A stretch of DNA of 64,000 nucleotides from an uncultured Chloroflexia bacterium (lineage in GTDB: Bacteria; Chloroflexota; Dehalococcoidia; UBA2979), in contig CAVSIV010000006.1 in the NCBI GenBank assembly GCA_963728205.1, positions 544,001 to 608,000 of the forward strand, given 5' to 3'. The number at the start of each line of letters is the position of its first letter. Within the stretch, counting starts at the first letter, position 1. Shown here piece after piece: positions 46,796 to 48,538 of this stretch. The notes beneath the pieces are model-generated. The model saw only the letters and a program-made list of their open reading frames with translations, searched no databases and was not told where the DNA came from. Made by a program: the position numbers and the translations under genes.

Positions 46796-46825
46796 CGGAG
46801 GCGGGGAGGTGTCCCCATCATCCAG

Positions 46826-48037
46826 TCAAGCGGCGACGCGCGAGCGCATGGTGTGTGTTGCGTCGTAGGCGGTGCCGGACTTGAGCATCGCAAGGATCAC
46901 GTCGCAGCGACGGCGAGCGAGGCAGATGATGGCGGCGTTGTGCTTCTTCCCCTGAGCGCGCTTGCGGTCGTAGAAGGCTCGGGAGGGCGGATGCCGCAGG
47001 GAGCAGAAGGCCGCGAGGAAGAGTGCATTCTTCAGCCGGTGGTTCCCCCGGCGGCTCCGCTTCTCGCCCCGGATGCTGGTACCCGACTGGCGCGTGACCG
47101 GAGCCAGTCCCGCGTAGCTCGCGAGCTGGGCGCCTGTGGCGAAGCGAGCGCCGTCACCGATCTCGGCGAGGATCTTCGCGCCGGTCCTGGGGCCCACGCC
47201 GGGGAGCGATATCAGGACCGGCCCCAGAGGGTGGCTGCGGAAGACCTCCTCGATCTGAACGAGGATCCGGCTGCGTCTGGCGTCGAGCCGGCCGAGTTCG
47301 GTGGCGAGCTCTGCAACGATCGGTCCAATGCGCCGCTCGCTTTGTACGGTGATCGTCTGGGCGTCGAGTGCGCTGAAGACCTCGTCCGCGAGGCGCGCGG
47401 CGACTCGGGGCGCCTGCCGGCGAAGCAGTCGCAGCACGGGACCACGGCCGGCCGCGCGGAGAGCCGACGGGGTGGGGTAGCGGGCAAGCAGCGCCCACGC
47501 CGCGGGGTGATCCAGTCGTGGACCGAGCACGGCCTCGAGTGGTGGATGCACGCTCGTGAGCATGTCGCGCAGCCGGTTCACCAGGCGGACTCGGTCCGCG
47601 GCGAGGTCATCGTCGTACCCCGAGAGGATGCGCAGCTCCTCGAGCAGCTCGTCGCCGACGGCCAGCCAGCGCAGGTTCCCTGGGTGGGTTCGTGCGAAGT
47701 CGGCAAGGACGAAGCTGTCGCGGACGTCCGTCTTCGCCTCGCCCGGGTAGAGATCTGCGGCTCGTCGCATGACCAGCCCGGGCACGTAGGCGACCGGGAC
47801 ACCGATCTCTCGGCACACGGCAAGCGTCAGCGCGGCGATCGACCCCGGCTGGTCCAACACCACTCCGGCATGCCCGATCGACGCTGCCGTCGACAGCAGC
47901 GCCTGAAGATCGGCCTGCTGATTCCGAACCGCGCGGGACGACAGCACCTCGCCGCCACCGTTGATCAGCGTTGCGTGGTGCTCGGTCTTTCCGACGTCGA
48001 GCCCAATGAACACATCGACCCGTGCCTCGGTCGGCAT
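46826..48037 (-). CDS. IS110 DEDD recombinase/transposase
   Basis: GLDVGK, VLDQPG, KTDVRDS, LPGVGP, YAGLAP..RQSG (Ser), GNHRLK, ARRR; GGAGGG RBS. Confidence 0.95.
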   Translation of the reverse strand: MPTEARVDVFIGLDVGKTEHHATLINGGGEVLSSRAVRNQQADLQALLSTAASIGHAGVVLDQPGSIAALTLAVCREIGVPVAYVPGLVMRRAADLYPGEAKTDVRDSFVLADFARTHPGNLRWLAVGDELLEELRILSGYDDDLAADRVRLVNRLRDMLTSVHPPLEAVLGPRLDHPAAWALLARYPTPSALRAAGRGPVLRLLRRQAPRVAARLADEVFSALDAQTITVQSERRIGPIVAELATELGRLDARRSRILVQIEEVFRSHPLGPVLISLPGVGPRTGAKILAEIGDGARFATGAQLASYAGLAPVTRQSGTSIRGEKRSRRGNHRLKNALFLAAFCSLRHPPSRAFYDRKRAQGKKHNAAIICLARRRCDVILAMLKSGTAYDATHTMRSRVAA

Positions 48038-48064
48038 GCGCCCTCCGATCGCGACCGCGCTTTG

Positions 48065-48255
48065 CGCATCCGACCGGGTGCCTCGGCCTGCATCCACCTT
48101 ACGAACGAGCGCTCACGGCGCCGGTCCCCATCAGCGGTCCACGGCACCCAGCATCACCGGTGGCAACACCCCCCAGGTCCTCGAACAGACAGGGGGCAGA
48201 TGAGCCATGCCGGCGACGCCGGATGTGATCACGGGCCGCGGTCAGCCCGGCGATC
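48065..48255 (-). ncRNA. Putative IS110 bridge RNA
   Basis: Contains UGAUGGGGAC (identical to the element right end) and GUAAGGUG (complementary to the circle junction) within a GGGUGCC/GGCACCC-closed loop, plus an upstream loop with C-rich/G-rich segments resembling the insertion site; ends approximate. Confidence 0.72.
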
Positions 48256-48538
48256 GCGAAGAAGGTAAGGGGGGCCGGCAGCGGCGGCGCGCGGGCCGGA
48301 TGCCCGCGACAGGGTCGGCGGCCTGTCTGCCGCCGCTGAGGGCGGGCGGCGGCGGGCGGCGAGGCCGGCCGGACCGCGGGCGGGCGGCGGCGGGCGGCGA
48401 GGCCGGCCGGACCGTGGGCGGACGCCGGCGGGCGGCGGGGCCGGCCGGACCGCGGGCGGACGCCGGCGGTGCGCGCGACCGTTACGGTGGGGGACGGCGG
48501 GCGCGCCCACGCCGCCGCGAGACGAAGCCGGAGCGCGC

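What the first reader, a model, noticed from the sequence alone, without database searches (positions are those of the whole stretch)
46807..48269. Complete IS110 element with readable circle-junction promoter and bridge-RNA guides
Seen on the minus strand: the right end reads TTGACT-GGATGATGGGGACAC-CT (46829-46807) and the left end reads CT-TACCTT (48269-48262). Joining them at the shared CT gives -35 TTGACT, a 17-nt spacer and -10 TACCTT, which exists only in the excised circle. The 5' non-coding end carries UGAUGGGGAC (48133-48124, identical to the donor left arm) and GUAAGGUG (48102-48095, complementary to the junction CACCTTAC), separated by a GGCGC/GCGCU hairpin and closed by GGGUGCC/GGCACCC. 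An upstream loop has CUGCCCCC and GGGGGGUG, resembling the reconstituted target CGGCCCCC-CT-CCCC. Established: IS621-type IS110 bridge recombinases use this architecture. Inference: this is an intact, high-GC RNA-guided recombinase with a poly-C target, an Asp at the usual Glu position (VLDQPG) and a guide register that seems offset from IS621.
Basis: partly seen in the sequence, partly recalled or inferred. Interest (0 to 1): 0.82.

Follow-up and report, generated by a model that had tools for sequence, protein, structure and literature searches.

The report
Intact IS110 element with bridge RNA
This is an intact copy of a known kind of jumping gene (IS110 family) whose own small RNA probably guides it into runs of C; it is an ordinary new member of a large, already catalogued family.

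Summary
The region is a complete IS110-group insertion sequence. It has a 231-nt left end, a 403-aa recombinase gene (48037..46826) and a 16-nt right end. A second copy in the same genome differs at 5 of 1460 bases.

About 70 homologues (Chloroflexota and Acidimicrobiia MAGs, Streptomyces, and ISArsp5 of Arthrobacter) share the architecture:
- a TTGACN hexamer in the right end and TACCTT at the left end, 17-18 nt apart once the ends are joined;
- two stem-loops with large internal loops (96.7% of cells paired; 15 of 25 pairs show compensatory changes);
- loop strands that change together with the element's own ends and with the flanking target DNA.

Corrections and additions:
- The shared core is CC (or a single C), not CT. 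The T at 46807 belongs to the target.
- The terminal UG of GUAAGGUG and GGGGGGUG sits where IS621 has its handshake guides.
- Asp in place of the DEDD Glu is real but clade-wide (80 of 81 relatives).

No circle, RNA or empty site could be observed. Verdict: a new member of a known kind, of moderate to low interest.

The parts
48269..48270 (-). Left copy of the repeated CC (candidate core), the last bases of the target C-run before the element
   Evidence: The two genomic copies and L031 share CC before TTACC and CC after ...GGGGACA. The exact crossover inside the C-run cannot be fixed from sequence.
48038..48268 (-). Left end (LE), 231 nt, non-coding; encodes the bridge RNA
   Evidence: It is identical in both genomic copies and aligns with the LEs of 67 relatives.
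48262..48267 (-). -10-like hexamer TACCTT, the half promoter at the LE tip
   Evidence: LE positions 3-8 end in T in 58 of 59 loci, and 44 of 59 read TACCTT (TAC was required by the anchor used to find the LE).
48227..48255 (-). Predicted 5' stem-loop of the RNA
   Evidence: Constrained fold of this sequence. Relatives show a hairpin at the same place in the alignment, but it was not tested by pair counts.
48150..48220 (-). Target-binding stem-loop. Outer stem 48220-48204 with 48164-48150; inner hairpin 48190-48177
   Evidence: RNAalifold helices 1 and 2: 96.8% and 98.0% of cells paired; 9 of 17 pairs change on both sides.
48191..48203 (-). 5' strand of the target loop (left target guide; contains CUGCCCCC)
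   Evidence: In relatives this strand copies the left flank: L052 7 nt, L065 8, L085 10, L087 10, L098 9. Here the match is GCCCCC, 6 nt.
48165..48176 (-). 3' strand of the target loop. GGGGGG (48174-48169) is the right target guide; UG (48168-48167) stands at the handshake positions
   Evidence: The guide types GGGGGG, AAAGGG, AAAAGG and AAAAAG pair with CA-C plus the right flank in relatives. Here the strand pairs with CA-CCTCCC through one G-T wobble.
48076..48149 (-). Donor-binding stem-loop. Outer stem 48149-48142 with 48083-48076; inner hairpin 48122-48108
   Evidence: RNAalifold helix 3: 96.2% of cells paired; 6 of 8 pairs change on both sides. The inner hairpin comes from the fold of this sequence only.
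48124..48133 (-). Left donor guide UGAUGGGGAC, identical to the right-end bases 46820-46811
   Evidence: The 10-mer occurs only at these two places in the window. The guide copies the RE end over 8-11 nt in 15 of 15 loci of the window's clade and follows RE changes in L033, L037, L040 and L041.
48095..48102 (-). GUAAGGUG: right donor guide (GUAA), core (GG) and handshake positions (UG); complementary to the joined ends CAC-C-TTAC
   Evidence: The fifth base is complementary to the first LE base in 67 of 68 loci (G/C 16, C/G 38, U/A 13).
48042..48046 (-). GGAGG ribosome-binding site, 4 nt before the ATG
   Evidence: Read.
46826..48037 (-). Recombinase gene, 403 aa plus stop. Acidic residues D14, D62, D104, D107 and serine S318
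   Evidence: The second copy is also intact, with 5 base differences that all lie in the ORF.
46824..46829 (-). -35-like hexamer TTGACT, the half promoter in the right end, overlapping the stop codon
   Evidence: All 59 loci in which the RE end was found read TTGAC followed by any base. The pattern allowed some variants but none was seen. The spacer to the -10 across the junction is 17 nt in 14 loci and 18 nt in 45.
46810..46825 (-). Right end (RE), 16 nt after the stop codon, ending ...AUGGGGACA
46808..46809 (-). Right copy of the repeated CC (candidate core)
46803..46807 (-). Right target flank TCCCC. The T at 46807 is a target base, not part of the element
   Evidence: The second genomic copy reads C here, and the relatives read CAC followed by a C-run.

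Best explanation
The region holds an intact insertion sequence of the IS110 group. The circle would be 1461 bp. In the window the element spans 48268-46810 on the minus strand, flanked by a repeated CC. It encodes a RuvC-like/Tnp recombinase and, in its 231-nt left end, an IS621-type bridge RNA.

Proposed cycle; only the anatomy and the covariation are shown here, the steps are inferred from IS621:
1. The element excises as a circle.
2. Joining the right end to the left end places TTGACT 17 nt from TACCTT. This drives transcription of a roughly 190-nt RNA and of the recombinase gene.
3. The RNA folds into a 5' hairpin and two stem-loops with internal loops.
4. The second loop holds the circle junction. 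Its 5' strand equals the end of the right end. Its 3' strand pairs with CAC-C-TTAC.
5. The first loop holds a C-run target. Its 5' strand is (U/G)GCCCCCU. Its 3' strand GGGGGG pairs with the top strand. The following UG can pair with the donor's CA after strand exchange.
6. The recombinase, with D14/D62/D104/D107 and S318, exchanges strands at a shared C or CC and inserts the element without further duplication.
For: Protein:
- PF01548 scores 3.9e-43 and PF02371 scores 7.8e-25.
- NF033542 scores 232 bits.
- IS621 8wt6 scores 2.5e-20 with the single sequence and 1.4e-24 with a family profile.
- The catalytic positions are conserved in 80-81 of 81 relatives.

Copies:
- There are exactly two in the genome. 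They differ at 5 of 1460 bases, with the LE and RE identical.
- Identity ends at CC-TTACC on the left and at ACA-CC on the right.

Family:
- 516 relatives were found and 80 fetched.
- The LE could be anchored in 71 of 82 sequences.

RNA structure:
- There are 25 consensus pairs, 15 with compensatory changes.
- 96.7% of cells are paired, against 83.1% in shuffles (0 of 500 shuffles as high) and 30-50% when the partners are slid.

Guides:
- The first LE base is complementary to the DBL 3' strand in 67 of 68 loci.
- The LDG copies the RE end over 8-11 nt in 15 of 15 loci of the window's clade, following G/A and U/C changes.
- The RTG pairs at 8 or more of 9 positions in 8 of the 9 loci whose guide is not poly-G, and the number of G in the guide equals the number of C after CA.
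- The LTG copies non-poly-C left flanks over 7-10 nt in 5 loci.

Promoter:
- TTGACN, a 17/18-nt spacer and TACNNT are conserved.
- No sigma-70-like site was found in the integrated form.

The IS621 rules were taken from PMC11208160 (sections 5, 6, 8, 10, 12) and from passages of PMC11208158.
Against: - No circle junction, no RNA and no empty site was observed.
- The joined -10 matches TATAAT at only 3 of 6 positions, so the joined promoter (8 of 12) would fail the scanning tool's own 9-of-12 threshold (criteria).
- In this copy the left donor guide does not pair with donor position 7 or the core.
- The left target guide matches this target over only 6 nt, and the C4 copy's target less well.
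- The C-run and G-run of the target loop are complementary to each other and zip up in the fold. That would hide the guides.
- The UG after the right donor guide pairs with the element's own donor. In IS621 that arrangement blocked recombination (PMC11208158, section 11 passages).
- CAC and GUG never vary, so that pairing is untested.
- Most relatives target C-runs, so the target covariation rests on about 10 loci from a few related subclades.
Confidence: 0.88

Rival explanations
1. The element is as described, but the core is CT as the first reader proposed (ends 48269 and 46807). The C at that place in the other copy would then be a later mutation or a tolerated core mismatch.
For: CT stands at both ends of the window copy. 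IS621 uses a CT core (PMC11208160, section 8).
Against: The second genomic copy, L031 and all other relatives with a C-run target read CAC followed by C, not CT. The DBL 3' strand has GG, which pairs with CC, at the two core positions. The T is explained as an interruption of the target C-run, paired by G-T wobble with the RTG.
Confidence: 0.05
2. The repeated motifs in the left end are DNA sites bound by the recombinase (subterminal repeats), or parts of an ordinary 5' leader. They are not guides in an RNA.
For: Sequence covariation between the LE interior and the element ends cannot by itself tell an RNA guide from a repeated DNA site. No RNA was observed. No Rfam family matched.
Against: The stems that flank the motifs keep pairing through compensatory changes, which argues for an RNA. 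The 3' strands are complementary, not identical, to the DNA, and the target-side strands follow flanks that are not part of the element. The protein is a relative of IS621, for which RNA guidance was shown by experiment (PMC11208160).
Confidence: 0.04
3. The element is intact in sequence but no longer moves in this genome. It would be a resident pair of copies without current activity.
For: There are only two copies. There is no circle or empty-site evidence. The guide match to both present targets is imperfect. D62 replaces the canonical Glu.
Against: [quoted passage not shown] All catalytic positions are kept. D62 is the norm in a clade with many multi-copy members.
Confidence: 0.15

Closest known systems
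IS621 (E. coli) bridge recombinase and bridge RNA (PDB 8wt6; Durrant 2024, Hiraizumi 2024)
   Same: Same two protein domains and the same catalytic positions. The non-coding RNA lies in the long left end. A promoter is split across the circle junction. The RNA has a 5' hairpin plus a target loop and then a donor loop. In each loop the 5' strand equals the top strand of the left arm and the 3' strand pairs with the top strand of core plus right arm. Two further bases occupy the handshake positions.
   Different: - Only the C-terminal domain aligns well by sequence.
- Asp stands where IS621 has Glu60.
- The core is CC or C, not CT.
- The target is a C-run, not a REP sequence.
- The left donor guide stops before the core in this copy.
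- The donor-loop UG pairs with its own donor.
- The two target-loop strands are complementary to each other.
ISArsp5 (name as annotated on Arthrobacter sp. FB24 plasmid NC_008537.1) and the unnamed Streptomyces 'IS110 family transposase' elements
   Same: 53.9% protein identity. They have the same LE and RE layout, the same conserved loop motifs and a C-run on both sides.
   Different: - The first LE base is G or A instead of C, with the matching change in the RNA.
- The junction spacer is 18 nt.
- Many Streptomyces members carry 150-730 extra bases between the stop codon and the RE tip.
- Some subclades target C-run/T-run boundaries.
L031 element (Chloroflexota MAG contig JAQCIU010000001.1)
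   Same: It is the nearest relative found, at 80% protein identity. The loop strands are the same except for one base missing from the left target guide strand (UCAUUGCCCCCU against UCAUCUGCCCCCU). It has the same TTACCTT tip and ...GGGGACA-CC end and a C-run target.
   Different: The -35 hexamer is TTGACA. The bases between the -35 and the guide-matched part of the RE differ.

Membership tests
IS110 family, IS110 group | N-terminal RuvC-like DEDD domain (PF01548) | tested here: met
   3.9e-43 over residues 11-165, covering the full model 1-155.
IS110 family, IS110 group | C-terminal Tnp domain (PF02371) with the conserved serine | tested here: met
   7.8e-25. S318 in QSG aligns with the ESG serine of IS621. 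It is conserved in 80 of 81 relatives.
IS110 family, IS110 group | The four acidic residues D-E-D-D | tested here: inconclusive
   D14, D104 and D107 are present. The second position is Asp (D62), not Glu, in 80 of 81 relatives. More distant IS110 proteins of the same class have Glu there (4 of 4 that aligned). The N-terminal alignment to IS621 is weak (3.0 and 7.7 bits) but consistent between the two searches.
IS110 family, IS110 group | Long left end and short right end, with the RNA in the left end (IS1111 is the reverse) | tested here: met
   LE is 231 nt and RE is 16 nt. The criterion is from PMC11208160, section 12.
IS110 family, IS110 group | Short core repeated on both sides; no long terminal inverted repeats | tested here: met
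   CC flanks both genomic copies and L031. Its length (1 or 2 nt) cannot be fixed inside a C-run.
Bridge-RNA systems (IS621 type) | Promoter reconstituted across the RE-LE junction | tested here: met
   At sequence level only. TTGACN, a 17/18-nt spacer and TACNNT occur in the 59 of 68 loci where the RE end was found. Transcription was not observed.
Bridge-RNA systems (IS621 type) | Two stem-loops with internal loops, supported by covariation | tested here: met
Bridge-RNA systems (IS621 type) | Loop strands covary with donor and target DNA in the IS621 strand pattern | tested here: met
   The target side rests on about 10 informative loci.
Bridge-RNA systems (IS621 type) | The 5' guides pair through the core | tested here: not met
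   In this copy the left donor guide reads ...GGGGAC-CGG against the donor ...GGGGAC-ACC. Some relatives do pair through it, for example L085 and L065 with CA-CG.
Bridge-RNA systems (IS621 type) | Circular intermediate, RNA bound by the recombinase, RNA-programmed recombination | not testable with these tools
   No RNA run is on record, and contigs of four runs showed no RE-LE joint.

The most novel reading that the evidence does not exclude
This Asp-variant clade (D-D-D-D) may exchange strands with a geometry different from IS621, for four reasons.
- In its Streptomyces members the donor and the target share only one base (C) at the crossover. The next donor base (G or A) always stays with the left end and never appears at the right junction.
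- The 5' donor guide often skips the core.
- The donor-loop 'handshake' bases pair with their own donor. That arrangement locks IS621.
- The two target guides are complementary to each other, because the target is a homopolymer.

Together these would mean a bridge recombinase with a 1-bp (or blunt) overlap and different handshake rules, naturally suited to high-GC hosts.
Probability: 0.2. Interest if true: 0.55.

Novelty: new member of a known kind. Interest (0 to 1): 0.3.

Why it matters
For this genome it is a routine annotation: two copies of an IS110-family element inserted in intergenic C-runs.

Beyond that, the family gives a clean natural data set in which bridge-RNA guides can be read by eye. 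The donor guides follow the element ends, and the target guides follow poly-C, CCTTTT, CTTTTC and TTTTTC flanks.

The family also shows departures from the IS621 rules: the core length, the handshake bases and Asp for Glu. These may interest people who engineer bridge recombinases for high-GC bacteria.

None of this was tested at the bench. The family is already catalogued (ISArsp5; NCBIfam 'IS110 family RNA-guided transposase').

Tried and rejected
- Rfam scan of 46500-48600 at E up to 1: only two chance-level Pyrobaculum matches, far below their gathering scores.
- Unconstrained single-sequence fold: z-score only -2.26, with long-range pairs that the family does not keep. I used the alignment-based structure instead.
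- A core 'AC' or 'CA' further inside the element. I considered it because the left donor guide ends in AC(A). I rejected it because left junctions have no CA before the LE tip.
- A 2-bp core C+N in the Streptomyces clades. It is disfavoured because N stays on the left in 38 of 38 loci with the matching RNA base and never appears after CAC on the right, except in L093, where another LE follows.
- Empty site: the right flank (46200-46806) found no orthologous stretch in 40 relatives, only short GC-rich chance matches.
- Sequencing runs: no RNA holder is listed.
- Four DNA runs held small shares (0.00-0.14). Laid as contigs, X1 and X2 carry identical 150-207-nt pieces of the LE and the start of the gene. 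No RE-LE joint and no skip of the element was seen. The one 'skip' (46484 to 48278) has a 21-letter side and comes from another organism's contig.
- Metagenome scan with a 20-base stretch of the LE tip: 2 hits, both unrelated DNA.
- The cross-type control for the RTG is weak (own mean 8.27 against 7.31 of 9), because most loci target C-runs and CAC/GUG are constant. The same holds for the LTG (6.26 against 5.67).
- Literature: searches found no paper on a poly-C-targeting actinobacterial IS110 bridge RNA. Supplementary tables of PMC11208160, which list predicted bridge RNAs of ISfinder elements, were closed and may already cover this family.

Rows dropped:
- 11 of 82 sequences had no LE anchor.
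- C4 (same element as the window) and L054 (truncated LE) were left out of A3.
- 9 of 68 loci had no RE end within the fetched DNA.
- L058 was dropped from the protein alignment for an internal stop.
- 14 of 18 distant IS110 ORFs did not align at the N-terminal motifs.
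Full report
OBSERVATION.
- The right end reads TTGACT (46829-46824, overlapping the TGA stop), then GGATGATGGGGACAC, then CT (46808-46807).
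- The left end reads CT (48269-48268), then TACCTT (48267-48262).
- UGAUGGGGAC (48133-48124) repeats bases 46820-46811. The 10-mer occurs nowhere else in the 64-kb window. The expectation is 0.07, and 0 of 100 shuffles reached two matches.
- GUAAGGUG is at 48102-48095. Alone it is not beyond chance: 13 of 100 shuffles had a match.

WHAT IT IS.
- The ORF 48037..46826 encodes 403 aa and has GGAGG 4 nt upstream of its ATG.
- It has both IS110 domains: PF01548 at 3.9e-43 and PF02371 at 7.8e-25.
- It passes NCBI's model 'IS110 family RNA-guided transposase' with 232 bits against a cut-off of 140.
- Its best matches among solved structures are the IS621 and ISCro4 bridge recombinases.
- The genome holds exactly two copies. 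The second, on contig 4, differs at 5 of 1460 bases. All five lie inside the ORF, and both ORFs are open.

ENDS.
- The two copies are identical from TTACC... to ...GGGGACACC.
- On the left, the window has six C and the other copy has T plus five C before TTACC.
- On the right, the window continues TCCCC and the other copy continues CCCCGGG.
- The nearest relative, L031 (80% protein identity, a Chloroflexota MAG), reads ...GCCCC|TTACC and ...GGGGACACC|CCCCAAG.
- The bases repeated on both sides in all three are CC, not CT. The T at 46807 is a base of the target's interrupted C-run.
- The joined sequence, and therefore the junction promoter, is the same under either reading. The circle is 1461 bp.

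FAMILY.
- A scan of one genome per species found 516 relatives, of which 80 were fetched. They are MAGs of Acidimicrobiia, Thermoleophilia and Dehalococcoidia at 59-65% identity, and many Streptomyces at 51-55%.
- A plasmid search adds ISArsp5 of Arthrobacter at 53.9% identity with the same layout.
- Across these, the right end is TTGACN, then 6-7 bases, then A-Y-R-G-R-R-R-CAC, followed by the flank. The flank is usually a C-run. In some subclades it is CCTTTT, CTTTTC or TTTTTC.
- The left end starts N-TTACC(T/G)T after a C-run. N is C in the window's clade and G or A in Streptomyces.

PROMOTER.
- The right-end tip was found in 59 of 68 loci. In all 59 the hexamer is TTGAC plus any base.
- The spacer to TAC..T across the junction is 17 nt (14 loci) or 18 nt (45 loci). 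The last base of the -10 is T in 58 of 59.
- The search pattern required a TTGAC-like word and the LE anchor required TTAC. What is actually shown is the fixed spacing and the absence of variants.
- No sigma-70-like site exists in the integrated form.
- The -10 matches TATAAT at only 3 of 6 positions.

RNA STRUCTURE.
- An alignment of 68 left ends (A3) gives a consensus of 25 pairs in three helices. These are the outer stem of a first stem-loop, its small inner hairpin, and the outer stem of a second stem-loop.
- Fifteen pairs show changes on both sides.
- 96.7% of cells are paired. Shuffles give 83.1 +/- 0.5% (0 of 500 as high), and sliding the 3' partners by 1-3 columns gives 30-50%.
- Each stem-loop encloses two long unpaired strands. 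This matches the IS621 layout: a 5' hairpin, a target loop and then a donor loop (PMC11208160, section 6).

DONOR-SIDE GUIDES.
- The 3' strand of the donor loop is CGUAA-N'-GUGGAUG. N' is complementary to the first LE base in 67 of 68 loci: 16 G/C, 38 C/G, 13 U/A, with one exception. The strand therefore pairs with the joined ends CAC-N-TTAC.
- The 5' strand of the donor loop copies the right-end tip. It matches over 8-11 nt in 15 of 15 loci of the window's clade.
- It follows the changes AUGGGG to AUAGGG (L037, L040, L041) and AUGGGG to ACGGGG (L033).
- It also follows AUAGAAGCAC and UAGAGGCAC in other clades.

TARGET-SIDE GUIDES.
- The 3' strand of the target loop ends in GUG and pairs with CA-C plus the right flank. 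GGGGGG goes with C-runs, AAAGGG with CCCTTT, AAAAGG with CCTTTT and AAAAAG with CTTTTT.
- Eight of the nine loci with an A-containing guide pair at 8 or more of 9 positions. In the ninth (L093) another left end follows.
- The 5' strand of the target loop copies the left flank: L052 7 nt, L065 8, L085 10, L087 10, L098 9.
- The strand pattern is that of IS621. The 5' strands equal the top strand and the 3' strands pair with it (PMC11208160, sections 6 and 8).

REGISTER.
- In IS621 the 3' guides cover core plus right arm. They are followed by two handshake bases, which pair with positions 6-7 of the other DNA after strand exchange (PMC11208158, passages of sections 11-12).
- Read in that register, GUAAGGUG is GUAA (right donor arm TTAC), GG (core CC) and UG.
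- GGGGGGUG is the right target guide with core, followed by UG.
- The target-loop UG can pair with the donor's CA after exchange, as in IS621.
- The donor-loop UG pairs with its own donor's CA. In IS621 that arrangement blocked recombination. Because CAC and GUG never vary here, this pairing is untested.

CORE LENGTH.
- In the Streptomyces clades the donor reads CA-C-G/A-TTACC and the targets are C-runs. The G or A is kept on the left in every locus and never follows CAC on the right.
- The shared stretch there is therefore a single C.
- In the window's clade it may be C or CC. Sequence alone cannot decide inside a homopolymer.

ASP FOR GLU.
- D62 in VLDQPG aligns with Glu60 of IS621, both with the single sequence and with a 17-member profile. 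The N-terminal alignment scores are low.
- D62 is conserved in 80 of 81 relatives; one relative (L048) has Asn.
- More distant IS110 proteins from the same bacterial class have Glu at this position, in 4 of the 4 that aligned there. Fourteen of the 18 ORFs did not align at the N terminus.
- The substitution is therefore a trait of the clade, not of this element.

NOT SHOWN.
- No circle junction, RNA or empty site was seen. There is no RNA run, and contigs of four DNA runs showed no RE-LE joint.
- No orthologous flank was found in 40 relatives.
- The metagenome scan gave two chance hits.
- The C and G strands of the target loop are complementary to each other and pair in the folds. This follows from a homopolymer target and might compete with target binding.

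COMPARISON AND VERDICT.
- The element works like IS621 and meets the sequence-level membership tests of the IS110 group and of bridge-RNA systems. The exceptions are that Glu is replaced by Asp and that core pairing by the 5' donor guide is missing in this copy.
- The family is already catalogued (ISArsp5; NCBIfam). Durrant et al. report predicted bridge RNAs in 85.7% of ISfinder IS110-group elements (section 12). Cargo-carrying IS110s are described in a 2026 preprint (10.64898/2026.08.14.744561; abstract only read).
- Searches found no paper on this poly-C-targeting clade. The supplementary tables that may cover it were closed.
- Verdict: a new member of a known kind.

Noticed in passing
window 48340-48478: A 38-bp GC-rich unit is repeated 3.6 times in tandem (92% matches), 70 nt to the left of the insertion. 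Similar units occur at dozens of places in the genome. 85 of the 87 matches lie in this flank, with arrays on contigs 2, 4 and 6.
   Followed up: partly
L048-L109 (Streptomyces loci): Many relatives carry 150-730 extra bases, with ORFs, between the recombinase stop codon and the conserved right-end tip (column d). This looks like small cargo. Cargo-bearing IS110s are described in a 2026 preprint.
   Followed up: no
L082, L090, L093: These are tandem or adjacent insertions. In L090 and L093 another left-end tip follows the right end after 3 or 0 bases. In L082 the left flank is another element's right end plus five C. The C-run left beside an inserted copy seems to be targeted again.
   Followed up: no
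L097 and L103, left junction: The left flank ends in ...TCACA instead of a C-run and does not match the target guide. These may be rearranged or secondary junctions.
   Followed up: no
L048; L058: L048 has Asn at the D62 position, and L058 has an internal stop in the recombinase gene. Both are probably inactive copies.
   Followed up: no
L153 1680-1700 (ISArsp5 copy on NC_008537.1): The right-end tip reads ...ATAGAGGC followed directly by a C-run, without the usual AC of CAC.
   Followed up: no
window 48191-48199 with 48167-48176: The two guide strands of the target loop (a C-run and a G-run) are complementary to each other and zip up in the folds. This is an unavoidable consequence of a homopolymer target. 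Its effect on target binding is unknown.
   Followed up: partly
window 47852-48197: Two soil-metagenome runs (X1, X2) hold short contigs identical to parts of the left end and the start of the gene. The same element, or a very close one, therefore occurs in soil samples. A 153-nt contig of X3 ends exactly at 48270, the left boundary.
   Followed up: partly
window 46325-46795 (+): An ORF of 156 aa with a lipoprotein-like N terminus ends 13 nt before the right core copy at 46808-46809. The element therefore sits just downstream of a convergent gene.
   Followed up: no
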